Source of the DNA: an uncultured Acidobacteriota bacterium | GTDB taxonomy: Bacteria; Acidobacteriota; Terriglobia; Acidiferrales; UBA7541 | Direction of reading: 5' to 3' | Length of the DNA: 24,000 nt | Assembly: GCA_963800455.1 (NCBI GenBank) | Contig: CAWDAY010000004.1 | Span: 2,684,593-2,708,592, forward strand | Shown: piece after piece, positions 15,285 through 24,000 of the stretch | Numbering within the stretch: the stretch's first letter is position 1 | How the letters are laid out: each line of letters opens with the position of its first letter | The notes under the pieces: generated by a model | Told to the model about the DNA's origin: nothing | What the model saw: only the letters and a program-made list of their open reading frames with translations | The model's database searches: none | Program-made: the position numbers and the translations under genes

Positions 15285-16604
15285 TTATATCCGTGGCATT
15301 AACTCCAGTTCGCGGATGTACTCGACAACAGCTTCACTCCAGCCGTCGATGTGCGTCCATGGACCGTAGCCGACACCGTTCTTGTTACTGGCAACGTTGA
15401 TCACATAGCCGCGGCCTCTCGGCCCCGGCACATGATCGTGGGCTTGTTCGTCTGTGATCACGATGATCCGGTCATAATTGTCCCGAATCTGTTCGAGCGC
15501 ACGGCCGAGGTAGGTTGCACTATGCGGCTGGCTCGCATCCAGCGCATCGCGCAACGCAAACCCTCGCCGCTGGGGCACCTCGACCAGGTTGTCCGAAAAC
15601 GTGAATGTGATCGCTTTCTCGCAAACTTCCCGGAGCAGAATGGCGAGGCCATATGCCGCGTCAGTTCGGAGCATCTCCGACCGGCGAGACAGCGCGGCCA
15701 TCATGCTGCCCGAAACGTCTACGAGAAGAACAGTTCGCCCGGGCAGTTTTTCCTGCGCCTTGAGCGAAGCAAGCATGGCCCGCTCGAGGGATTCCTCCCA
15801 CTGAGGCGCAAATCGCGCCGCAGCGAGAAAACGAAACGGCAGGACGCGTCCCGTCTTCATGGACTCAATGCCATCCACCACGAGAGATTCGTCTACGCCC
15901 GCCTGCTTCATGTTTCGCAGGTTACGAAGGAGTGCAAGCCCGCCGAGTTTTCGTTCGCGGAGCAACCGTTCCCATGCCTCACGCTTATCGGCACCGGAAG
16001 AGAGCGCCACCTCCCAGGTGTCGGGAGTTTGCAGCTCTCCTTCGATCAGCCGCTTCCACAGCGCGCTCTGTTCCGCGTCACGCGGCTTCCCGTGGCAAAG
16101 GAACAGAACGTCACGGAGACGAATCGGCCCGCTGCGGTCATACTTGGCGAGCTGGTATTCGTCGAATTTGCGGAAAGCCTCGGCCAGCCCTTTCTTCGCT
16201 TGGGCGGAGAGGGGAGCTTTGCCATCCTTCCAGTAGATTGCAACGAATTCCGCAAGTTCGTCCGCGCGCTGGATCACCTGTACAAGCGTGCGCGAAACAA
16301 ATTCGCGGTGCGTCTTCAGGCGCGCTATTTCACGAACGAGCAGTAACGGAGCGTGCCGAAGTTTCATCTTGGTTCGTGCCTCGACGGCAAGTAACGCTAC
16401 AATCTCGGCTTTCACCTTCGGCACGAGCGACTGAATGCGGCCGGCGATCTCCACTCCGTCCTCATAGAATTGGTCCTCCCACAGCAAGCATGCGAGCACC
16501 GATCGCCGCAATTGAAGCTCGGGGGAAATATTTCGCGCAGGAGCTCCTTCGTGCGTGCGAGTCCCCCACGGAAACGGAATTTTCAAGATGTTCAGTCGTG
16601 CCAT
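15285..16604 (-). CDS. rsr: Ro60 ortholog Rsr (TROVE domain + vWA domain)
   Basis: 439 aa with a strong SD (AAAGGAAAGGAGG). The TROVE-like HEAT-repeat N-region includes EDQFYEDG, RHAPLLLVRE, LRDVLFLCHGKP and LLRNLRNM. The C-terminal vWA has a MIDAS motif (LLVDVSGSM). It sits in a locus with rtcBA, rtcR and Y-RNA-like units. Confidence 0.9.
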   Translation of the reverse strand: MARLNILKIPFPWGTRTHEGAPARNISPELQLRRSVLACLLWEDQFYEDGVEIAGRIQSLVPKVKAEIVALLAVEARTKMKLRHAPLLLVREIARLKTHREFVSRTLVQVIQRADELAEFVAIYWKDGKAPLSAQAKKGLAEAFRKFDEYQLAKYDRSGPIRLRDVLFLCHGKPRDAEQSALWKRLIEGELQTPDTWEVALSSGADKREAWERLLRERKLGGLALLRNLRNMKQAGVDESLVVDGIESMKTGRVLPFRFLAAARFAPQWEESLERAMLASLKAQEKLPGRTVLLVDVSGSMMAALSRRSEMLRTDAAYGLAILLREVCEKAITFTFSDNLVEVPQRRGFALRDALDASQPHSATYLGRALEQIRDNYDRIIVITDEQAHDHVPGPRGRGYVINVASNKNGVGYGPWTHIDGWSEAVVEYIRELELMPRI

Positions 16605-16633
16605 TGTGTCCTCCTTTCCTTTGCCAAATTCAA

Positions 16634-16784
16634 TCGTCGGGGAATTGGTGGCAACGGATGCAGCCTAGGCTGCCGATTGCTCTACCTTCTGAGCTACACG
16701 GAGCGACCGCGAGGTGGATCCGAGGCAGGAGTCGAACCTGCGACCCATCGATTAGAAGCAACCGTCACCTGCGCCACCGACGAA
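16634..16784 (-). ncRNA. Y-RNA-like unit Y5 (YrlA-like): closing helix plus circularly permuted tRNA-like module
   Basis: Minus-strand RNA: the 5' UCGUCGG-UGGCG... pairs with the 3' ...UUCC-CCGACGA. Internally, the T-arm GCAGG-UUCGACU-CCUGC (16741-16725) PRECEDES an imperfect acceptor-like helix closed by a loop. This is followed by GUA + D-arm GCUC-AGAAGGUA-GAGC (16694-16679), then the hairpin GCAGC-CUAG-GCUGC. It ends 30 nt before the rsr ATG. Boundaries are approximate. Confidence 0.6.
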
Positions 16785-16811
16785 TTCTGTATTGCTCGTT
16801 GTTCAAGATCT

Positions 16812-16967
16812 TTCACCGGGGAAAATCGGACACGGGGCTTTTCTGTGCGGTTTCCCGCATTGAGCTACCCCGACGATCGGGAGCAGGAGTTGAACCTGCA
16901 ACCTCCCGCCGCTCTCGCGACGGGCGCTCTACGTCATTGAAGTATCCGTGTCTTTCGCCACCGGCGA
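16812..16967 (-). ncRNA. Y-RNA-like unit Y4 with tRNA-like module (T-arm, GNRA-capped arms)
   Basis: The 5' UUCGCCGG-UGGCG-AAAGACACGG pairs with the 3' CCGUGUC-CGAUUUUCC-CCGGUGAA. Internal order: GUAGAGC, then an 8-bp hairpin CCCGUCGC-GAGA-GCGGCGGG (16924-16905), AGGUU, T-arm GCAGG-UUCAACU-CCUGC (16899-16883), hairpin CCCGA-UCG-UCGGG, GUAGCUCAA, and hairpin UGCGG-GAAA-CCGCA (16859-16846). It starts 5 nt after the stop of the 108-aa ORF. Confidence 0.55.
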
Positions 16968-16971
16968 ATTG

Positions 16972-17298
16972 TCATCGTGAGTTTTCATCCAGGATGAGCG
17001 CGATTTTTTCGCTGCTATTTTCGGTTTCATCGAGACACACGAAGCCCGCGTCCCGCTTCAGTGCGACCTTGTCCAGAACGATGGCGATTTCTTCCATTTC
17101 ATCGAACGTTGGCTTGTTCTTCTCGATGTACGCGGTGCATGCGCGCACGGAAAAGTGCATCCGCCGTTGCGGCCACAATGCCTGGCACACGACGACCAAT
17201 TCGGTCTCGCCGTATCCCCGCGCACTGAAAGCTCGCGAACACGATTCGCACAAAGATGGTCCGTTGACGGGAGTCCCGTTCTTCACATAGATGCCCAT
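16972..17298 (-). CDS. Hypothetical 108-aa protein (CxxC plus two further Cys), embedded in the Y-RNA array
   Basis: ATG at 17298 is preceded by AGGAGGTAAATC (strong SD). The protein reads MGIYVKNGTPVNGPSLCESCSRAFSARGYGETELVVVCQALWPQRRMHFSVRACTAYIEKNKPTFDEMEEIAIVLDK..., with an acidic C-terminal tail. It has the same strand and tight spacing as the flanking operon elements. I recognise no family. Confidence 0.6.
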   Translation of the reverse strand: MGIYVKNGTPVNGPSLCESCSRAFSARGYGETELVVVCQALWPQRRMHFSVRACTAYIEKNKPTFDEMEEIAIVLDKVALKRDAGFVCLDETENSSEKIALILDENSR

Positions 17299-17380
17299 GA
17301 TTTACCTCCTTTCCAAGAAGCGTGAATATTGCGCCTCTGAATCCGCGAGAAATCCTGCACGGCCTTTTCTCGGAAAAATA

Positions 17381-17545
17381 TTCGCCGGGGAACAAGCGCC
17401 CAGGGTTGTCTCAAGGCGGTTTTCAGTAGGTGCCTTGTCCTTCGGGACTACGCCCCCGCCCCTACTGCTTCCTTATCCTTGGCAGGATTTCCGGTCCTGC
17501 GCGACGTTGGCGGAGGAAGTAACCCTCGACTACGCCACCGGCGAA
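17381..17545 (-). ncRNA. Y-RNA-like unit Y3 (no canonical T-loop; different effector module)
   Basis: The 5' UUCGCCGG-UGGCG-UAGUCGAGGGUU pairs with the 3' AACCCUGGGCGCUUG-UUCC-CCGGCGAA (perfect 8-bp closing helix plus GGGUU/AACCC). Internal hairpins are GCAGGA-CCGGAAA-UCCUGC and CAGUAGG...GUCC-CGAA-GGAC...CCUACUG. Confidence 0.45.
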
Positions 17546-17551
17546 ACTTAT

Positions 17552-17661
17552 GGCCAGGGAAAATCAGGCACGGCGATATTGGGGATTCGAACCCCGCCGC
17601 TTTTCGCTTGAGCAAAGAGCGGTCTTCGCCCGAGAAGTATCCGTGTCTTACGCCACTGGCC
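17552..17661 (-). ncRNA. Y-RNA-like unit Y2 (contains a consensus T-arm)
   Basis: The 5' GGCCAG-UGGCG-UAAGACACGG pairs with the 3' CCGUGCC-UGAUUUUCC-CUGGCC. Internally there is a 10-bp arm CGCUCUUUGC-UCAA-GCGAAAAGCG followed by the T-arm GGGG-UUCGAAU-CCCC (17595-17581). It shares the exact 16-mer AAGACACGGAUACUUC with Y4 (forward coordinates 17634-17649 and 16939-16954). Confidence 0.5.
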
Positions 17662-17668
17662 GCTTGAT

Positions 17669-17741
17669 CCTGGGGGAATGACCGTCTACGGTCTTTTTTG
17701 TCGAGTGACAGTCGATGAAATCGCAGACTGCGCCACCCAGG
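17669..17741 (-). ncRNA. Y-RNA-like unit Y1 (short, 73 nt)
   Basis: The 5' CCUGGG-UGGCG-CAGUC... pairs with the 3' ...GACGGUCA-UUCC-CCCAGG. Internal hairpins are CAGUC-UGCGAUUUCAUC-GACUG (17730-17709) and GACCG-UAGA-CGGUC. Confidence 0.4.
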
Positions 17742-17976
17742 TTCAAAAAATTGGAACTAGCAAAGAATTGATGTGAAAGAAGATAGCTATCGCGAGGGAC
17801 CGGACCACGTTCGGACACAATCCCGGCCCAGCATCAATCCCGCTTGCCGATCCATCGAATTGTGTTTGCGATGCTGCATTCCGAACATTCTCCAGAGCCG
17901 CGAATTCTAGATGAATTTCTCGTTTTGCGCAATAGTAAATATTCGATGCCAGAGTCAGATATTTCGGCGGCATCAT

Positions 17977-19014
17977 TCAAGTCGCTGGACTCACCTCGAC
18001 TCTCGTACACCCACTTTCCTCGCGAGTCTCGAAACAAACAGGTAAGAAGGTGGATACGACATCCATATTCGTCCGAGCGTGCCGGTTCAACTTCGAAGCC
18101 GTGAACACTCCGCCGCCCGCCAAAGCAAAAGGGAGCAATAGTTGATCGGCCAAATGCTCGCCGACCGCAGCTGCAGACGCAATGTAAGCGCGCGCTTCCT
18201 TGACGGCCTCCGTTGCGACGCTTTCGGCGCTTGCCCCGAGCCGGCCAAATCCGCAGAACAGTTCCGTCATCCCGGTGGATGTTCCCACTTCGATCAACAC
18301 GACGTTTCCCGGCCCGACAGAATTCCTGGTTTCGACGATTCGCATGCATTTGTTGTCCCAATTCAGCAAGTGCGCAACAGTGTCAATCTCGCGGCGTGCA
18401 ATGGCGGGAGACAAGTTCGCGACGATTGCCAATACACTCCGACGAGTGATTTCGCCGCGCTCTATCATGTCAGTCGGCGACAAGTGTTCGGACGGCTCAA
18501 CAGTCGCAGTGAAGCATCCGCCTCCTACGGGATAGAAGCCATATCGCTCCAGATTCACACTTACTTTCGGTCCGAGCCTGTTAATGACTGGCAAAAAGCA
18601 CTTCTCAAGAAAATCAAAGGGAGGTGCCGCCTGATTGTGTGTACCGCCCTCAATCGTGATTTGGCTCGGTCCAGACGACATCATCAGAGCCGGCAAGATC
18701 GTTTGAAATACGAGTGTGCTGCTCCCAGCCGTTCCGATGACGAAACGGTGCTTCCCCGGTCGTACAGTTCCGGGAATAAAGGTAAGAGTCTTCGATCCGA
18801 GAGTCGCGCCTTCGACTTTTGCCTCTCCAACTTCGGATGCAGCGAGAACCGCCGTAAGGTGTTGCCTTAGCAAACCTGGCCGTTCCCGCTTCGCCCGGAT
18901 GTTTTCAATGCGGAACGCTTTTCCGGTTGCGAGCGACAGGCTGAGCGACGAGCGCAGAATCTGTCCGCCGCCTTCGCCCGAAGATCCATCGATCCGAATC
19001 ATGTTCCGCTCCAT
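17977..19014 (-). CDS. rtcA: RNA 3'-terminal phosphate cyclase RtcA
   Basis: 345 aa, collinear with E. coli RtcA: IRIDGSSGEGGGQILRSSLSLSLATGKAFRIENIRAKRERPGLLRQHLTAV..., GTAGSSTLVFQTILPAL, AAVGEHLADQLLLPFALAGGG, and the His-containing segment NRHARTNMDVVSTFLPV. It starts 10 nt after the rtcB stop. Confidence 0.95.
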   Translation of the reverse strand: MERNMIRIDGSSGEGGGQILRSSLSLSLATGKAFRIENIRAKRERPGLLRQHLTAVLAASEVGEAKVEGATLGSKTLTFIPGTVRPGKHRFVIGTAGSSTLVFQTILPALMMSSGPSQITIEGGTHNQAAPPFDFLEKCFLPVINRLGPKVSVNLERYGFYPVGGGCFTATVEPSEHLSPTDMIERGEITRRSVLAIVANLSPAIARREIDTVAHLLNWDNKCMRIVETRNSVGPGNVVLIEVGTSTGMTELFCGFGRLGASAESVATEAVKEARAYIASAAAVGEHLADQLLLPFALAGGGVFTASKLNRHARTNMDVVSTFLPVCFETREESGCTRVEVSPAT

Positions 19015-19024
19015 TTGCCTTCAG

Positions 19025-20254
19025 TCATCCTTTAACGCACACAACTTGGTGCAACGTATGAACGATTTCCACCAAGTCGGCCTGCGCCGCCATTACAGCC
19101 TCGATCGACTTATAGGCGGCTGGAGTTTCGTCGATCACGTCTGCGTCCTTCCGGCACTCTACGCCGGCAGTCATGCGTTCGTGATCTGCTACGGAAAATC
19201 GCCGCTTTGCTTCGCCACGAGACATCGCACGACCCGCCCCGTGACTACAGCTTTGGAAACTTTCCGGGTTACCCTTGCCGCGAACGATATAGGAACGCGC
19301 CCCCATGCTGCCGGGAATGATCCCCATATCGCCTTCGCGCGCACGGACCGCGCCTTTTCGAGTGACCAGAACATTCTCGCCGTAGTGCGACTCCCGTGCG
19401 ACGTAGTTGTGGTGGCAATTAATCGCCTTCAACTCCGCGACGAATGGTCGCACTTCACTCGAAGAACGGACGGCAGCAACAATTTGTTCCATCATCAGAT
19501 GCCGATTCCAGCGAGCGTAATCTTGTGCCCACTCGACTGCCGCGACGTAGTCATCAAAGTGTTCCGAATGCTCCGGGAAATAAGCCAGATCACGATCGGG
19601 CAGATTGATGAACATTCGTTCCATATCTTTTCGGGCGAGCTCGATGAAGTGGCTGCCCATTCGATTGCCCACGCCGCGTGAGCCACTATGCAGCATGAAC
19701 CACACCGCATCCGATTCATCGAGACACACTTCGATGAAGTGATTCCCGGTGCCCAGCGTGCCCAAGTGATTCGAGTGATTTCCTCGATCGAGCTTGGGGT
19801 GCTTTTCGAGAATCGTGTCATACCGCGGCTTTAGCGTTTGCCAAACGTCCAGCGTGCGCGCCGGGATGTCATTCCACGCCCCTCGATCGCCTCGGCCACC
19901 GTGGTTCGTTCGGCCATGAGGTACGGCCTTCTCAATCGCTTCGCGAACGCCCTTCAGAGTTTCCGGGAGGTCGCGCGCGTTGAGATCCGTTTGTACGGCC
20001 ATCATGCCGCAACCGATGTCGACGCCGACCGCAGCCGGGATAATCGCGCCCTTGGTCGGGATCACGCTGCCAATCGTGGCGCCCACGCCCCAGTGCACGT
20101 CCGGCATCGCAGCAACCCATTTGAAAACGAACGGAAGTTGCGCGACGTTGACAAGCTGTTGGCGCGCCTGGTCCTCTAAGGCGACGCCCTTGGTCCACGC
20201 CTTGATGGGTATGCCCTTCTCAGGAACAATGACGTTATAAGTTGTCTCGGACAT
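19025..20254 (-). CDS. rtcB: RNA-splicing/repair ligase RtcB
   Basis: The start is set at ATG 20254 (MSETTYNVIVPEKGIPIKAWTKGV...) with GGAGGAG SD, giving 409 aa. It is collinear with E. coli RtcB (KMWTKGV, MPDVHxGxGxTIGSV, HSGSRGxGN, INCHHNY). The track start at 20410 would place the sigma54 promoter inside the CDS. Confidence 0.95.
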   Translation of the reverse strand: MSETTYNVIVPEKGIPIKAWTKGVALEDQARQQLVNVAQLPFVFKWVAAMPDVHWGVGATIGSVIPTKGAIIPAAVGVDIGCGMMAVQTDLNARDLPETLKGVREAIEKAVPHGRTNHGGRGDRGAWNDIPARTLDVWQTLKPRYDTILEKHPKLDRGNHSNHLGTLGTGNHFIEVCLDESDAVWFMLHSGSRGVGNRMGSHFIELARKDMERMFINLPDRDLAYFPEHSEHFDDYVAAVEWAQDYARWNRHLMMEQIVAAVRSSSEVRPFVAELKAINCHHNYVARESHYGENVLVTRKGAVRAREGDMGIIPGSMGARSYIVRGKGNPESFQSCSHGAGRAMSRGEAKRRFSVADHERMTAGVECRKDADVIDETPAAYKSIEAVMAAQADLVEIVHTLHQVVCVKG

Positions 20255-20393
20255 TGTCGCTCTCCTCCATTTCAGAACTCTTGGTCCCGTGAGGCGCGGA
20301 GTACATTGTCCCCCGCGCCTCCCTCGGTTCGCGATTCCCACATCGCTCGCGAACTTCCCGCTCGCTTTTTTATCGTCTCTGGCGAGATATAAA

Positions 20394-20409
20394 TGCAGGC
20401 CACGTGCCA
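20394..20409 (-). promoter_or_regulatory. Sigma54 (-24/-12) promoter of the rtcB-rtcA-Y-rsr operon
   Basis: The minus strand reads TGGCAC-GTGGC-CTGCAT against the consensus TGGCAC-N5-TTGCW, with GG and GC at canonical spacing. It lies ~140 nt upstream of the rtcB ATG and between the divergent rtcR and rtcB genes, as expected for RtcR-dependent operons. Confidence 0.75.
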
Positions 20410-20517
20410 ATCTCGATGGCGAAGGTAAGGCACTGCGACTAAGGGAGATACCACCGGGAACCTCCGAAAGAAACTCGATGCGACGATCCCATAAGATACG
20501 ATATTATAAATATAGAT

Positions 20518-22116
20518 ATGCCGGACAAGCCACATGTCGCGATCGGCCTATTGGGCACGACCCTTGACGCGGGCCGCTCGCAGGATCGCTGGTCGAGTTG
20601 GCGGCCAACCGTTGCCATCTGCATGCAACCGGACTTTGTGATTAAGCGCTTGGAACTACTGCACGGATTACGTGACAAGACCCTGGCCCATCGCATCGTG
20701 AGCGACATATCAGCCGTCTCACCCGAAACATCCGTGAAGCTGCACGAAATCGAATTTGGCGATCCCTGGGACTTCGAACGTGTATACGAGACCCTTTTCA
20801 AGTTCACACGCGGCTACCCGTTTGACACGGATAACGAGGAATACCTGATCCACATCACGACGGGTACGCACGTTGCCCAGATCTGTCTCTTCCTGCTAAC
20901 AGAGTCTCGATACCTGCCGGGAAAATTGCTTCAGTCCGCCCCCGAACGCGATAGGAAGGCGCCTGGAAACATAAAAATAATCGACCTGGATCTTTCCCAG
21001 TACGACCGCATTGCTTCGCGATTTCGTCAGGAAGCGCGTGATGCAGTCTCTTACCTGAAGGGAGGAATCGATACAAAGAACGCTGCGTTCAACCAACTCA
21101 TTGACCGGATCGAACAGGTTGCCATCGCCACTCGAGACCCACTTCTCCTGATGGGTCCCACGGGAGCCGGCAAATCGAGGCTCGCCCGAAGAATCTATGA
21201 GTTAAAGAAAATGCGCCACACAATCACAGGAGAGTTCATCGACGTAAACTGCGCGACACTTCGAGGCGACGGGGCGATGTCCACGCTCTTTGGACACGTG
21301 AAGGGAGCCTTTACCGGAGCGCTCAAGGATAGACCCGGAGTCCTTCGGGCCGCAGATAAAGGAATGCTATTTCTGGACGAAATCGGAGAGCTTGGAAACG
21401 ACGAGCAAGCGATGTTGTTGCGGGCTCTGGAAGAGAAAACTTTCCTGCCGCTTGGATCGGACCGTGAAGCTCACAGCGATTTCCAAATGATTGCGGGAAC
21501 GAACCGCGACCTACTCTCAGCCGTCCGGGAGGGCCGCTTTCGTGAGGATCTTCTGTGTCGAATCAATTTATGGACGTTTACATTACCGGGCTTGAGGTCG
21601 CGTCCTGAGGACATCGAACCCAACCTGCAATTTGAGCTAGACCAATTCGCGCAGCGCACTGGCCATCGTGTAACCCTCAGTAAAGAGGCCCGCGAGGCTT
21701 TCCTTCGTGCCGCGCTCGCCTCGTCAGCAAAGTGGACTGGCAATTTCCGTGATCTGAACGCCGCGGTCGTCCGGATGGCCACGTTGGCACAAGGCGGACG
21801 AATTTCCGTTGAGATTGTTGAAGAAGAAATCGAAAGGCTCAAGGCGACTTGGGCGGCACTCGAAGAACAAGAAGAATCGGATGGCCTTCTTACTCAAATT
21901 CTAAGCGCAAAAGCGCTCGACCATATCGACCTGTTCGACCGAGTTCAGCTTGCTCGTGTGATTCAAGTTTGCCGCGATTCACGTTCGATGTCGGAAGCTG
22001 GCCGTCAATTATTCGACGCCTCGCGAACGCGCAAGACAAGTACGAATGATGCGGATCGCCTACGCAAGTATTTAGGCCGATTTGGAATCGAATGGGATCA
22101 AATTGTGAGAGCGTGA
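20518..22116 (+). CDS. rtcR: Sigma54-dependent transcriptional activator RtcR (CARF sensor domain + AAA+ + HTH)
   Basis: 532 aa, collinear with E. coli RtcR from end to end. Shared segments: VAIGLLGTTLD...WRPTVAICMQ...LELLH...ISAVSPET...DPWDFERVY...YLIHITTGTHVAQICLFLL...IIDLDLSQY (CARF-type N-domain), GPTGAGKS Walker A, GHVKGAFTGA sigma54-contact loop, and NDADRLRKYLGRFGIEW at the C-terminus. Confidence 0.95.
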   Translation: MPDKPHVAIGLLGTTLDAGRSQDRWSSWRPTVAICMQPDFVIKRLELLHGLRDKTLAHRIVSDISAVSPETSVKLHEIEFGDPWDFERVYETLFKFTRGYPFDTDNEEYLIHITTGTHVAQICLFLLTESRYLPGKLLQSAPERDRKAPGNIKIIDLDLSQYDRIASRFRQEARDAVSYLKGGIDTKNAAFNQLIDRIEQVAIATRDPLLLMGPTGAGKSRLARRIYELKKMRHTITGEFIDVNCATLRGDGAMSTLFGHVKGAFTGALKDRPGVLRAADKGMLFLDEIGELGNDEQAMLLRALEEKTFLPLGSDREAHSDFQMIAGTNRDLLSAVREGRFREDLLCRINLWTFTLPGLRSRPEDIEPNLQFELDQFAQRTGHRVTLSKEAREAFLRAALASSAKWTGNFRDLNAAVVRMATLAQGGRISVEIVEEEIERLKATWAALEEQEESDGLLTQILSAKALDHIDLFDRVQLARVIQVCRDSRSMSEAGRQLFDASRTRKTSTNDADRLRKYLGRFGIEWDQIVRA

Positions 22117-22135: not shown

Positions 22136-24000
22136 CTAATTCACGGAGAATAGCGTAGGCTCCACGACAGCCTGCGCTTCGGGATTGTAGTAGTCGTACA
22201 AGGTCGAAGGAGGTGTCACGGCTTTCAACCCGAAACGCGGCTTAAACGTAAAAGAAAACTTCGTGCCCCCTGCGTGCGGCCAGAGATAAACGACCATTCT
22301 GTCCGGCAACACTTCGTACTGGTTGATGTCCCATCCGGATTCCTTCATTGCCGTCTCGACCGAGCTTCTGTCCACTTCCGCGCCGGGTGGCAGGCCGATT
22401 TCGGCCAGCATCATTCCGTAACCTCGAAATCCAATTCTCTCGGCTTCGACACTGCATCGAGTGCTCTCCCCCACCTTGGCCGACGGGCTCTCGTAGTGGA
22501 CTCGCAGCCGCAAAGTGTCCGAAGATTTGTCTTCGTGCTGGAAGTCTTCCTCCTTTGCGGTCTGGACCCAGGGCACATAGTAATCCGAGATCAATTGGAG
22601 CGACGCCTGTGCGGATCCTGCGCCACGGCGAATTTCCAGATGATGTGGTCCCGGGGAAATAAATTTCGATATATCGGCCGTGACCGGGGCGGTCAGTTCG
22701 TCGGGACTCGGCATGTTAATGGTTAAGGTCTGACGACCGTCGACCAGGATCGACGCTACGAGGTTCGCCTTTGACGAAACGCCCGGTCCGCTCGTCGTCC
22801 TTGGAACCGTGAACGAATGGATTGCATCCAGGACGTTCACAGTCGCCTGCGTCGAGAACCAAATCCCGAATCGATCTTGATTACGAAGCAGAAAAAGCAA
22901 ACCCCGGGACACGAGTGGATCGGCCACTGTATTGTTATCCGATGCTTTCTCAAACGCTTGCAGCACGATCGCGGTCGTTTCGACTCGTCCAGTTAGCCCC
23001 CATCCATAGAAGGGCGTATTGGTCTCAAGAGACCAGTAGCTGAAGTTGCCTTCGCGATGTTCCAGTTTCCGCAGCCTCTCAAGACTTTCAGTGACACGAG
23101 GCTTGTCTCCCACATAGAACGACGCGAGCGCGTAGGACGCGATCAGATAGGGCTCATCGTAAGAGCTGGCTTGCTTTTCCAAATAACCGAGCGCTCGCGC
23201 GACTGCCGTCGATGCCGCTTTGGATAAACGTGCGTTTTCTGCGGGATCAGCCACCGTGACTTTTGTTGTGGCAATGACCCGTGCGATATATGCGGTCAAG
23301 ACAGCCGTCCGGTGCGCGTCTTCTGGTCCGCCCCAGGTGGTCGCGATCCAACGACCGTCGTCCTGCTCGTGGTGCAGCAGCCACGACAGATTTCCCTGGG
23401 CGATAGAATCATCGACGTTTGTGAACTCACGTGCTTCACTTAGAAATTTCATGGCGTAGGCAGTCAGCGCGGGATCGGAATCACCTCTACCCCAATACGT
23501 GATTCCTCCATCAGGGGCTTGATAAGAGAGCAGCCGCCCGTAGCCGAGTTCCACATACCGCTTCGCGCGGGCGACAACGGTCGGTGCGGCACCCCGCGCG
23601 TCTTTGGTGTATTGCAGAAGCAAGAGGCTCGGATAAGCCGACGAAATTGTTTGTTCCGCGCAGCCGTAAGGACGGCCCAAAATCCCCTCGACACTTTCGA
23701 GGACGTGAGCATTCAGGTTCGGATAGATCTTCAGTGTGCCTTCAAGAGACCCGGGAATCGTGTTATCCGGAATCCGGATGTCCACGCCTGCGGAGTCTCC
23801 GAAGATTTGGCTGACCGTCTCGACGTGTTCTTCTCCGTTCGGTCGAACGGTGACCGTTCGCTCGATGGCGTCGCCCGCATCTGCGCCACTCGCGACGATT
23901 CTTTGCTTCCCGTTCTTGATCGGCGCGGTCGCATGGAATTTGAACACTTCGTTCTTGCTGTCGCGTGCAGGGACGGTAGTCTTCACAGAAGTCGGACTCA
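22136..24000 (-). CDS. Alpha-2-macroglobulin family protein with thioester motif; C-terminal ~620 aa only (N-terminus beyond the right edge)
   Basis: It contains GRPYGCAEQTISSAYPSLLL (CxEQ thioester site) followed by the alpha-helical TED-like region and a C-terminal receptor-binding-like beta domain. The track start at 23986 is a GTG inside an ORF that stays open to position 24000. Confidence 0.85.
   Translation of the reverse strand, partial: SPTSVKTTVPARDSKNEVFKFHATAPIKNGKQRIVASGADAGDAIERTVTVRPNGEEHVETVSQIFGDSAGVDIRIPDNTIPGSLEGTLKIYPNLNAHVLESVEGILGRPYGCAEQTISSAYPSLLLLQYTKDARGAAPTVVARAKRYVELGYGRLLSYQAPDGGITYWGRGDSDPALTAYAMKFLSEAREFTNVDDSIAQGNLSWLLHHEQDDGRWIATTWGGPEDAHRTAVLTAYIARVIATTKVTVADPAENARLSKAASTAVARALGYLEKQASSYDEPYLIASYALASFYVGDKPRVTESLERLRKLEHREGNFSYWSLETNTPFYGWGLTGRVETTAIVLQAFEKASDNNTVADPLVSRGLLFLLRNQDRFGIWFSTQATVNVLDAIHSFTVPRTTSGPGVSSKANLVASILVDGRQTLTINMPSPDELTAPVTADISKFISPGPHHLEIRRGAGSAQASLQLISDYYVPWVQTAKEEDFQHEDKSSDTLRLRVHYESPSAKVGESTRCSVEAERIGFRGYGMMLAEIGLPPGAEVDRSSVETAMKESGWDINQYEVLPDRMVVYLWPHAGGTKFSFTFKPRFGLKAVTPPSTLYDYYNPEAQAVVEPTLFSVN

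What the first reader, a model, noticed from the sequence alone, without database searches (positions are those of the whole stretch)
16634..17741. Five tandem RNA units share a covarying closing helix and an invariant 5' UGGCG / 3' UUCC signature
Minus-strand 5' ends: Y1 CCUGGG-UGGCG, Y2 GGCCAG-UGGCG, Y3 UUCGCCGG-UGGCG, Y4 UUCGCCGG-UGGCG, Y5 UCGUCGG-UGGCG. Matching 3' ends: Y1 UUCC-CCCAGG, Y2 UUCC-CUGGCC, Y3 UUCC-CCGGCGAA, Y4 UUCC-CCGGUGAA, Y5 UUCC-CCGACGA. The terminal helix sequence changes between units but stays complementary (CCUGGG/CCCAGG, GGCCAG/CUGGCC, UCGUCGG/CCGACGA). The unpaired UGGCG and UUCC next to it are invariant. That pattern is what a protein-recognised asymmetric internal loop above a closing stem would give, which is where Ro60 binds known Y RNAs. 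The interiors differ (tRNA-like, T-arm only, or unrelated hairpins), suggesting one shared protein-binding handle with diversified effector modules.
Basis: seen in the sequence. Interest (0 to 1): 0.8.

Follow-up and report, generated by a model that had tools for sequence, protein, structure and literature searches.

The report
Five-gene bacterial Y RNA array
Five small RNA genes sit in a row just upstream of a bacterial Ro60 (Rsr) gene; all carry the same docking structure that Ro60 proteins are known to bind but different bodies, so this is a large and somewhat unusual example of an already known RNA–protein system.

Summary
On the minus strand at 16634-17741 there are exactly five units of the form [6-8 bp closing stem]-UGGCG…UUCC-[complement]. 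Shuffled windows give 0.24 on average.

The units lie in an apparent operon: rtcR <> rtcB-rtcA-Y1-Y2-Y3-orf108-Y4-Y5-rsr, from an acidobacterium (Terriglobia).

In 80 related genomes the same handle recurs 1-8 times upstream of rsr on the rsr strand. The closing stem covaries strongly even in units found without requiring it.

UGGCG is the 5' part of the published Ro60/Rsr-binding motif (GNCGAAN0-1G, 'CGAA'). One handle with varied effector modules is the accepted Y RNA model.

One detail is wrong: the signature is not fully unpaired. GG most likely pairs with CC next to a bulged U.

- a second covarying helix (P1);
- an invariant UACUUC box;
- a conserved 108-aa ORF inside the array.

What differs from canonical YrlA is an extra lower stem, a near-invariant 3' RUUCC strand, and at least four conserved paralogue classes, two of them not tRNA-like. 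This handle type accompanies a short Rsr clade that also occurs in phages.

Rsr binding, expression and processing are inferred, not shown.

The parts
20518..22116 (+). rtcR, sigma-54-dependent activator, divergent from the operon
   Evidence: Pfam RtcR 4.3e-81 and Sigma54_activat 2.4e-47
20394..20409 (-). sigma-54-type promoter-like site TGGCACGTGGCCTGCA in the rtcR-rtcB intergenic region, facing rtcB
   Evidence: The only match in the window, with 1 mismatch. Chance expectation is 0.7 per window, so it is weak on its own; the position is what makes it plausible.
19025..20254 (-). rtcB RNA ligase. The probable start is Met53 of the listed ORF, whose TTG start at 20410 overlaps the promoter-like site.
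   Evidence: Pfam RtcB 5e-131, with the match beginning at ORF residue 85
17977..19014 (-). rtcA RNA 3'-phosphate cyclase
   Evidence: Pfam RTC 9.4e-76
17669..17741 (-). Y1: short Y RNA-like unit (73 nt). P0 is CCUGGG/CCCAGG, 5' motif UGGCGCAG, box variant UUUCAUC, no tRNA-like arm.
   Evidence: Descriptor hit. Belongs to a class of 44 units in 42 loci. The class alignment shows P0, GG:CC and P1, with 8 of 15 pairs compensatory.
17552..17661 (-). Y2: 110-nt unit. P0 is GGCCAG/CUGGCC, 5' motif UGGCGUAAG, box AUACUUC, T-arm-like hairpin GGGGUUCGAAUCCCC only.
   Evidence: L002 holds a 93%-identical orthologue. Related to the T-arm-only class with P0 GUCAG (57 units in 37 loci).
17381..17545 (-). 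Y3: 165-nt unit. P0 is UUCGCCGG/CCGGCGAA, 5' motif UGGCGUAG, box UUACUUC, multi-helix body that is not tRNA-like.
   Evidence: Class of 36 units in 36 loci. In the class alignment 26 of 38 predicted pairs have compensatory changes, and there is a conserved GGGCGUAGYCCC hairpin.
16972..17298 (-). orf108: conserved small protein gene inside the array, with a strong GGAGG ribosome-binding site
   Evidence: tblastn finds it inside the array in 38 of 80 loci. It has 67 homologues, all hypothetical, and no Pfam, NCBIfam, PHROG or PDB match. Cys17, Cys20 and Cys54 are invariant and Cys38 nearly so.
16812..16968 (-). Y4: 157-nt unit. P0 is UUCGCCGG/CCGGUGAA, 5' motif UGGCGAAAG (an exact GNCGAANG), box AUACUUC, T arm + AS stem + partial D arm.
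   Evidence: Rfam YrlA partial match, 23.9 bits, model positions 27-81. MFE z-score -4.1. Orthologues in L001-L005.
16634..16783 (-). Y5: 150-nt YrlA-like unit. P0 is UCGUCGG/CCGACGA, 5' motif UGGCGCAG, box UUGCUUC, full T arm, AS stem and D arm. Ends 29 nt before the rsr start codon.
   Evidence: Rfam YrlA full-length match, 38.9 bits, E 1e-6, below the gathering score of 69. L001 orthologue.
15285..16604 (-). rsr: short (439 aa) Ro60/TROVE protein
   Evidence: Pfam TROVE 2.7e-18 and vWA_Ro60. PHROG 850 'RNA-binding protein' 1.8e-47. Best PDB match is phiLo phage Ro60 9KOP/9L5Y, E 7e-33.

Best explanation
This is an array of five Y RNA genes: non-coding RNAs that partner the Ro60 orthologue Rsr. 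They are embedded in an RtcR-controlled RNA-repair operon, rtcB-rtcA-Y1-Y2-Y3-orf108-Y4-Y5-rsr.

Each RNA closes on itself through a lower stem (P0). Directly above P0 lies a conserved module:
- a bulged U;
- two G:C pairs (GG of UGGYG with CC of UUCC);
- an internal loop carrying YG(N)A on the 5' side and R-UU on the 3' side;
- a second helix (P1);
- a single-stranded UACUUC box.

This module is the docking site for Rsr. The parts beyond it differ between paralogues: two tRNA-like, one T-arm-only, one small hairpin and one multi-helix body. They are proposed to connect or gate Rsr towards different partners or substrates, as Yrn1 does for PNPase in Deinococcus.

Shown here: the location, the structural covariation, the conservation of the motifs, the conservation of the paralogue classes, and the co-occurrence of this handle type with one Rsr clade.

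Inferred: co-transcription from the sigma-54 site, excision of the units, Rsr binding, and distinct effector roles.
For: Context:
- rtcR, rtcB, rtcA and a TROVE gene flank the array.
- No sigma-70 promoter or terminator lies within it.
- A sigma-54-like site lies upstream of rtcB.

Handle:
- There are five exact descriptor hits against 0.24 expected.
- In 80 Terriglobia loci, 286 credible units lie upstream of rsr on its strand, 1-8 per locus.
- Units found from motifs plus P1, with no P0 requirement, number 122 on the rsr strand and 6 on the opposite strand. They have P0 positions 1-6 paired in 92-98% of cases, and this collapses when the partner is shifted by 1-3 nt.
- The count of structure pairs on 101 handles gives 92.8% of cells paired against 69.8% shuffled. 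The covariation score is 0.677 against 0.231 (0 of 500 shuffles reach it) and 0.08-0.17 for slid controls.
- With either motif left free, the 5' pentamer is UGGUG or UGGCG and the 3' pentamer is RUUCC well above background.
- The UACUUC box lies 16-17 nt after the U of UGGYG in 283 of 309 units, against 18 of 309 in shuffled segments.

Link to Rsr:
- UGGCGAAAG in Y4 is an exact GNCGAAN0-1G. That motif and its protection by Rsr are published (PMC4201824).
- CGAA point mutants weaken binding by phiLo Ro60 3-4-fold (PMC12135203). phiLo Ro60 is the closest solved homologue of this Rsr.
- The same handle sits next to Rsr proteins 52-58% identical to this one in a Deinococcus gobiensis plasmid and in Xanthomonas, Brevundimonas and Caulobacter phages, and in variant form next to the 42%-identical crAss001 Rsr. 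The long Rsr of R. etli has a different, fully Watson-Crick handle.
- In crAss001 the handle also occurs internally, closed by a loop. This argues that it is a recognition module rather than an end-processing signal.

Paralogue classes are conserved with compensatory changes.
Against: - There are no expression, processing or binding data for this lineage.
- None of the five units reaches Rfam's YrlA gathering score (best 38.9 of 69).
- Only Y4 matches GNCGAAN0-1G exactly. Position 5 of the motif is variable here (A, C or U).
- phmmer finds no match at E<=0.001 to the D. radiodurans or X. laevis Ro60 structures. RNA-contact residues therefore could not be checked.
- Some Rsr loci at 40-49% identity (Ralstonia and Rhizobium phages) gave no handle with my descriptor.
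- The sigma-54 site alone is not statistically significant.
- Only a minority of related loci have rtcBA within 7 kb upstream. The link to RNA repair is therefore not general.
Confidence: 0.78

Rival explanations
1. The shared stem and signature are mainly a processing or stability signal. It would define the ends of each RNA cut from a polycistronic transcript by a double-strand-specific or tRNA-processing nuclease, and would not be an Rsr-binding site.
For: - The signature sits at the very ends of each unit.
- Units are separated by only 6-7 nt (Y1-Y2, Y2-Y3) or 28 nt (Y4-Y5).
- No internal promoters or terminators are present.
- Bacterial Y RNAs are known to be cut from precursors (PMC4201824).
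Against: - The invariant nucleotides coincide with the motif protected by Rsr and needed for phage Ro60 binding (PMC4201824, PMC12135203).
- The handle type follows the Rsr clade across phyla and phages.
- In crAss001 the same module is internal and loop-closed in RNAs whose ends lie in an acceptor stem. It therefore cannot act only as an end mark.
- The two roles are not mutually exclusive.
Confidence: 0.1
2. The units are a decayed tRNA gene cluster, or tRNA-derived repeats with no dedicated function.
For: Y2, Y4 and Y5 carry T-arm-like hairpins, and Y5 has a D arm. One related unit in a Xanthomonas phage is annotated tRNA-Thr.
Against: - ARAGORN finds no tRNA in the window.
- Y1 and Y3 have no tRNA features, yet their classes are conserved in 42 and 36 genomes with compensatory changes.
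- The handle, P1 and the box are conserved far beyond neutral expectation.
- Strand and position relative to rsr are fixed.
Confidence: 0.03
3. The structures are cis-regulatory leaders (attenuators or protein-binding operators) that control translation or stability of orf108 and rsr mRNA, rather than free-standing RNAs.
For: Y5 ends 29 nt before the rsr start codon, and Y3 ends 82 nt before orf108. Autoregulation by binding of Rsr to its own leader is conceivable.
Against: - Five independent closed units are more than a leader needs.
- Related arrays lie downstream of rsr in crAss001 and R. etli.
- In many Terriglobia loci the last unit lies 100-250 nt from rsr, with other sequence in between.
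- Characterised homologues are stable trans-acting RNAs (PMC4201824).
Confidence: 0.07

Closest known systems
Salmonella Typhimurium rsr-yrlBA-rtcBA operon (YrlA, YrlB)
   Same: - Y RNAs are encoded in one RtcR/sigma-54-controlled operon with rsr, rtcB and rtcA.
- At least one Y RNA has a tRNA-like T/D-arm domain.
- There is a 5' GNCGAA-type motif in the stem formed by the RNA ends.
   Different: - Gene order here is rtcB-rtcA-Y array-rsr.
- There are five RNAs rather than two.
- An extra 6-8 bp lower stem lies below the motif.
- The 3' strand (RUUCC) is conserved, whereas only the 5' strand is reported as recognisable in Salmonella (PMC4201824; bioRxiv 10.1101/312249).
- A protein gene sits inside the array.
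- Rsr is short (439 aa).
Deinococcus radiodurans Yrn1/Yrn2 and the small RNAs a, b and d upstream of rsr
   Same: - Several small RNAs are encoded in tandem upstream of rsr and cut from a precursor.
- A lower stem lies below the Rsr-binding motif, and both strands of the binding helix are retained.
- Some RNAs carry only a T arm.
   Different: Here all five share one handle.
- Sequence similarity could not be tested because the D. radiodurans locus was not available to me.
- A related Deinococcus gobiensis plasmid does carry the present handle type.
Thermus phage phiLo Ro60 with Yrl1/Yrl2 (PDB 9KOP, 9L5Y)
   Same: - It is the closest solved homologue of this Rsr (E 7e-33).
- Two Y-like RNAs lie upstream of the gene.
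- The architecture is stem-bulge-stem with CGAA in the bulge, and CGAA mutants bind 3-4-fold worse (PMC12135203).
   Different: - There are two RNAs, not five.
- The setting is a phage.
Canonical YrlA as in Rhizobium etli (Rfam RF02553, 98 bits in L085)
   Same: - The tRNA-like core is the same.
- The 5' UGGCGAA sequence is the same.
- There is a tandem array next to rsr and rtcR: five motif starts in R. etli.
   Different: - In R. etli the motif strand is fully Watson-Crick paired to a 3' UCGCCA.
- There is no extra lower stem and no UUCC.
- Rsr is long (518 aa) and the array lies downstream of it.
Mycobacterium smegmatis YrlA/YrlB
   Same: There are two Rsr-bound RNAs upstream of rsr, cut from one precursor. 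One is tRNA-like and one has only a T arm.
   Different: M. smegmatis YrlA is cleaved by RNase P in its acceptor-like stem and receives CCA. Nothing here could test that. The AS stems of Y4 and Y5 are 4-5 bp rather than 7.

Membership tests
Bacterial Y RNA (working definition of Chen et al. 2014, PMC4201824) | Encoded within about 4 kb of an rsr/Ro60 (TROVE) gene, on the same strand | tested here: met
   All five units lie 30-1140 nt upstream of the TROVE gene at 16604..15285 on the minus strand. The same holds in 80 related loci.
Bacterial Y RNA (working definition of Chen et al. 2014, PMC4201824) | Long stem formed by pairing of the 5' and 3' ends | tested here: met
   P0 (6-8 bp), GG:CC and P1 appear in every MFE fold. 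P0 and P1 covary across 101 handles.
Bacterial Y RNA (working definition of Chen et al. 2014, PMC4201824) | 5'-strand motif GNCGAAN0-1G in that stem | tested here: inconclusive
   Y4 GGCGAAAG is exact. Y2 GGCGUAAG, Y3 GGCGUAG and Y1/Y5 GGCGCAG differ at the fifth position. The family-wide consensus is GGYGNA(A)G.
Bacterial Y RNA (working definition of Chen et al. 2014, PMC4201824) | Bound and stabilised by Rsr | not testable with these tools
   No expression or binding data are available. The only indirect support is co-occurrence of the handle type with the Rsr clade.
YrlA (Rfam RF02553) | Covariance-model score at or above the gathering threshold (69 bits) | tested here: not met
   There are no hits at gathering. 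Y5 scores 38.9 bits, Y4 23.9 bits, and Y1-Y3 give nothing at E<=10.
YrlA (Rfam RF02553) | tRNA-like domain with a T arm, an acceptor-like stem-loop and a D arm | tested here: inconclusive
   Y5 has all three. Y4 has a T arm, an AS stem and a partial D arm. Y2 has a T arm only. Y1 and Y3 have none.
RtcR-regulated RNA-repair operon | rtcR adjacent and divergent, with rtcB and rtcA in the operon | tested here: met
   Pfam RtcR, RtcB and RTC domains with E-values of 1e-76 to 1e-131.
RtcR-regulated RNA-repair operon | Sigma-54 (-24/-12) promoter upstream of the operon | tested here: inconclusive
   TGGCACGTGGCCTGCA lies at 20409..20394 with one mismatch. A match is expected by chance 0.7 times per window.
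tRNA genes | Recognised as tRNA by a tRNA finder or the Rfam tRNA model | tested here: not met
   ARAGORN finds 0 genes. There is no Rfam tRNA hit in 16500-17900 at E<=10.
Metazoan-type Y RNA (Rfam Y_RNA) | Match to the Rfam model with its GGUCCGA/UUGAC bulged helix | tested here: not met
   No hit even at E<=10. The resemblance is only architectural: lower stem, G:C pairs, then a G-U/A-U region.

The most novel reading that the evidence does not exclude
The handle (lower stem, bulged U, GG:CC, the YG(N)A/RUU loop, P1 and the UACUUC box) would be a portable docking module specific to a short-Rsr clade. It has been attached to at least four conserved RNA bodies, in arrays of 5-8 genes, in soil Acidobacteria, a Deinococcus plasmid and several phage groups. 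In crAss001 it even occurs in circularly permuted form, in place of the anticodon arm of acceptor-ended tRNA-like RNAs. The conserved ORF108 would be a dedicated protein partner of one of these RNPs. Under this reading the locus encodes a multi-adaptor Rsr system, not a single Rsr-Y RNA pair.
Probability: 0.3. Interest if true: 0.7.

Novelty: new variant of a known kind. Interest (0 to 1): 0.5.

Why it matters
Bacterial Y RNAs have been characterised experimentally in only three species, each with two accepted Y RNAs. What their effector modules do is still open, apart from PNPase tethering by Yrn1.

A lineage with five or more paralogues would help. All share one clearly delimited handle, and they fall into four or more conserved body types, two of them not tRNA-like. 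That gives a natural experiment for asking what the variable modules recruit.

The finding also gives a sharper definition of the Rsr recognition element, covering both strands plus a box. This would find Y RNAs that the Rfam YrlA model misses: no unit here reaches threshold, and at least one phage unit is annotated as a tRNA.

Tried and rejected
- Rfam at gathering threshold gave no hits. ARAGORN found none.
- I tested whether the base after UGGYG pairs with the purine before UUCC. The association is real: C with A in 18 of 23, U with G in 9 of 11, MI 0.20 bits, 0 of 2000 permutations. However, the Y of UGGYG shows a similar association with the same purine, and phylogeny is not controlled. 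I therefore do not claim a specific non-canonical pair or register.
- The Rfam alignment of Y5 places the model's first helix on P1 rather than on the UGGCG region. Comparison with R. etli (UGGCGAAUGC) suggests this is a register slip, and I did not rely on it.
- AlphaFold2 on ORF108 with 23 homologues gave pLDDT 43, which is unusable, so no fold search was run. Pfam, NCBIfam, PHROG and PDB profile searches for ORF108 were empty.
- A structure-only scan with both motifs left free had high background: 8876 hits on the rsr strand against 5806 on the other. It was useful only for ranking motif pairs.
- The supplementary tables of Chen et al. 2014 are not held. I could not check whether Acidobacteria were in their list.
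- Literature searches for Y RNA with Acidobacteria or with crAss001 found nothing relevant.
- The metagenome and viral contig scans were not used. The genome set already gave 80 loci.
Full report
**Observation**

The units are:
- Y1 17741..17669
- Y2 17661..17552
- Y3 17545..17381
- Y4 16968..16812
- Y5 16783..16634

I ran a descriptor scan for [stem of at least 6 bp]+TGGCG, 40-220 nt, TTCC+[complementary strand]. It returns exactly these five in the whole 24-kb window, all on the minus strand. 200 dinucleotide-preserving shuffles give a mean of 0.24 hits and never more than 3.

**Context**

Pfam identifies these genes:
- rtcR at 20518-22116 (+);
- rtcB at 20410..19025 (-);
- rtcA at 19014..17977 (-);
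- a TROVE/Ro60 protein (Rsr, 439 aa) at 16604..15285 (-), directly downstream of the array.

An ORF of 108 codons with a strong ribosome-binding site lies between Y3 and Y4 (17298..16972).

The only sigma-54-type site in the window, TGGCACGTGGCCTGCA, lies between rtcR and rtcB and faces rtcB. It overlaps the nominal TTG start of the rtcB ORF, so the real start is probably Met53. There are no sigma-70-like promoters or terminators within the array.

The simplest reading is a single RtcR-dependent transcript: rtcB-rtcA-Y1-Y2-Y3-orf108-Y4-Y5-rsr. This is inferred, not shown.

Rfam finds nothing at gathering thresholds. With permissive thresholds, Y5 is a full-length YrlA match at 38.9 bits (gathering 69). 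Y4 is a partial match at 23.9 bits covering the T arm, AS stem and D arm. ARAGORN finds no tRNA.

**What is already known**

Chen et al. 2014 (PMC4201824) made four relevant points:
- Y RNAs are encoded next to rsr in more than 250 bacteria and phages.
- The stem formed by the RNA ends carries a 5' motif, GNCGAAN0-1G, that resembles the metazoan GGUCCGA and is protected by Rsr.
- Each studied species has at least two Y RNAs.

The 2025 study of phiLo phage Ro60 (PMC12135203) describes Y-like RNAs as a 5'-3' stem flanking a bulge that carries CGAA. It shows that each CGAA substitution weakens binding 3-4-fold. That protein is the closest solved homologue of this window's Rsr (E 7e-33).

Y4 reads UGGCGAAAG, an exact GNCGAANG.

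**Comparative test**

Rsr homologues come from Acidobacteriota, mainly Terriglobia. I fetched 80 genome loci with rsr on the + strand.

- The exact signature recurs upstream of rsr on the rsr strand in most loci and is rare on the other strand.
- A relaxed descriptor gives 309 units, of which 286 are credible, at 1-8 per locus (mode 3-5).

To avoid circularity I re-detected units from the two motifs plus the second helix (P1), with no requirement on the closing stem.
- This found 122 units on the rsr strand and 6 on the opposite strand.
- Their closing-stem positions 1-6 are paired in 92-98% of cases. The figure falls to chance when the partner is shifted by 1-3 nt.
- Compensatory changes occur at positions 2-6 (G:C, A:U, C:G and U:A all seen).

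On a 101-sequence handle alignment, the count of structure pairs gave:
- 92.8% of cells paired, against 69.8% shuffled;
- a covariation score of 0.677, against 0.231 shuffled (0 of 500 shuffles reach it) and 0.08-0.17 for slid controls.

When one motif is fixed and the other left free, the free pentamers well above background are:
- at the 3' end, GUUCC (104), AUUCC (66), UUUCC (6) and (G/A)AUCC (12);
- at the 5' end, UGGUG (117), UGGCG (55) and UAGUG (2).

**Anatomy of the handle**

The consensus is:
- 5' side: [P0 6-8 bp]-U-GG-YGNA(A)-[G, then P1 of 7-8 bp]-N-UACUUC
- 3' side: [P1']-C-(G)CNNN-R-UUCC-[P0']

Details:
- P1 covaries.
- The UACUUC box sits 16-17 nt after the U of UGGYG in 283 of 309 units, against 18 of 309 shuffled segments. 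It probably corresponds to the conserved YUAY of YrlA.
- The box is also present in units with no tRNA-like domain, so it belongs to the shared module.
- All MFE folds pair GG with CC beside a bulged U.
- These columns are invariant in Terriglobia, so they cannot covary there. In crAss001, however, four units read UAGUG/UUCU and one reads UGGUG/UUCC. That is a G:C to A:U compensation.
- 'Unpaired UGGCG/UUCC' is therefore not the best description. What is left unpaired is a 4-5 x 5-8 nt internal loop carrying YG(N)A and R-UU.
- I could not settle the register of any non-canonical pairs inside that loop.

**Paralogue classes**

Clustering gives conserved classes across genomes:
- tRNA-like units with T and D arms: 110 units in 68 loci;
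- T-arm-only units of 91-126 nt with P0 GUCAG: 57 units in 37 loci. Y2 is a relative with P0 GGCCAG;
- short units of 65-88 nt with P0 CUGGG: 44 units in 42 loci, including Y1;
- long units of 154-202 nt with no tRNA features: 36 units in 36 loci, including Y3;
- a small Y4-like class of 6 units.

The Y1-class alignment shows 8 of 15 pairs with compensatory changes. The Y3-class alignment shows 26 of 38, with a conserved GGGCGUAGYCCC hairpin. The different interiors are therefore conserved structured RNAs, not decayed copies.

**Beyond Acidobacteria**

Rsr proteins similar to this short one occur in plasmids and phages. The same handle lies upstream of them in:
- a Deinococcus gobiensis plasmid (2 units);
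- Xanthomonas phage 10KY502B (3 units, one annotated tRNA-Thr);
- Brevundimonas phage Bambus (5 units);
- Caulobacter phage CcrPW (8 units, P0 up to 14 bp).

The long Rsr of R. etli (518 aa) has five tandem YrlA-type starts with a different handle. There UGGCGAAUGC pairs fully with a 3' UCGCCA, and there is no lower stem and no UUCC.

Handle type thus follows the protein clade in this small sample. That is the best computational proxy for a direct interaction that I could obtain.

No handle was found with my descriptor near Rsr in a Ralstonia phage, a Rhizobium phage, a Rhodococcus plasmid, an Allomeiothermus plasmid or a Gordonia phage.

**Mechanism**

The most likely account is as follows.
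1. RtcR activates the operon.
2. The Y units are excised from the transcript and stabilised by Rsr bound to the handle.
3. The distal modules give each RNP a different partner or gating behaviour, by analogy with Yrn1-PNPase.

The anatomy and comparative evidence are shown here. Transcription, processing, binding and effector roles are inferred. My confidence that these are Rsr-partner Y RNAs with the handle as docking site is about 0.78.

Rivals:
- Processing signal only. This is weakened by the internal, loop-closed handle in crAss001.
- Decayed tRNAs. This is excluded by conservation of the non-tRNA classes.
- Cis-regulatory leaders. This is unlikely given five closed units and arrays lying downstream of rsr in other genomes.

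**Novelty**

The kind is known: Y RNAs next to rsr in an rtc operon, with a modular handle-plus-effector design. Several features differ from what the literature I could read describes:
- a two-stranded handle with an extra lower stem and a near-invariant RUUCC;
- a shared UACUUC box;
- five paralogues in four or more conserved classes;
- a conserved small protein gene inside the array.

None of the units is found by Rfam at threshold. I rate it a new variant of a known kind, of moderate interest.

Noticed in passing
window 16972-17298 (-): A 108-aa ORF with a strong ribosome-binding site lies between Y3 and Y4. It is conserved inside the Y array in 38 of 80 related loci. It has three invariant cysteines (plus one nearly invariant) and no match in Pfam, NCBIfam, PHROGs or PDB. 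The AlphaFold2 model was unusable (pLDDT 43). It may be a partner of the Rsr/Y RNA system.
   Followed up: partly
L084 (Bacteroides phage crAss001) 4622-4770 and 4879-5014, downstream of its TROVE gene: Two RNAs look like circular permutations of a Y RNA. They have an acceptor-type stem at the ends, D-like and T arms, and, where the anticodon arm would be, RUUCC-[short hairpin]-UGGUG/UAGUG-UAG-P1-UUACUUC. One gives an Rfam tRNA hit of 46.6 bits with a long insert. ARAGORN calls neither.
   Followed up: partly
L084 4444-4533, 4541-4618, 5021-5164: Three ordinary (non-permuted) units in crAss001 carry UAGUG…UUCU instead of UGGYG…UUCC. This is a compensatory G:C to A:U change in the handle.
   Followed up: partly
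L086 (Caulobacter phage CcrPW) 1224-2422; L083 (Brevundimonas phage Bambus) 2143-2954; L082 (Xanthomonas phage 10KY502B) 2333-2918: Arrays of 8, 5 and 3 handle-bearing units lie upstream of phage Rsr genes. In the Xanthomonas phage, part of one unit is annotated as tRNA-Thr.
   Followed up: partly
L085 (Rhizobium etli plasmid pRetIE4803a) 5553-6160: Five tandem starts of the canonical GRCGAAURC motif lie downstream of rsr, next to rtcR. Three of them are Rfam YrlA hits (98, 57 and 33 bits). Multi-copy arrays therefore also exist for the canonical type.
   Followed up: partly
L007, L015-L018, L022, L029, L034, L036, L038, L046, L048, L050, L056, L064 and others, between the last Y unit and rsr: A recurrent hairpin-like element of about 40 nt (AGAUUCCUCACCG…CGGUUCGGAAUGACAA) occurs in many Terriglobia loci. 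It is often followed by short AGCU-rich repeats. It is not present in the window.
   Followed up: no
window 17742-17976 (-): The 235-nt spacer between rtcA and Y1 is conserved in close relatives: 87% identity over the 122 nt available in L002 and 71% over 145 nt in L003. It contains a GC-rich hairpin with GUCCGAA and UGGUCCGG. Its function is unknown.
   Followed up: partly
window 15285-16604 (-): This Rsr is short (439 aa). It scores far below NCBIfam's Rsr equivalog cut-off (21 against 900 bits). It is closer to phage Ro60 proteins (PHROG 850; phiLo 9KOP) than to the D. radiodurans or X. laevis structures, which phmmer does not reach at E<=0.001.
   Followed up: partly
L003 4563-7000; also L023 and L069: In these relatives the tblastn match to RtcB lies inside the Y array, between Y units, rather than upstream of it. 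Most of the 80 loci have no rtcBA within 7 kb upstream of rsr.
   Followed up: no
window 22136-23986 (-): An alpha-2-macroglobulin-like protein gene (Pfam TED_complement and A2M_recep domains) lies next to rtcR and runs towards the window end. It appears unrelated to the finding.
   Followed up: no
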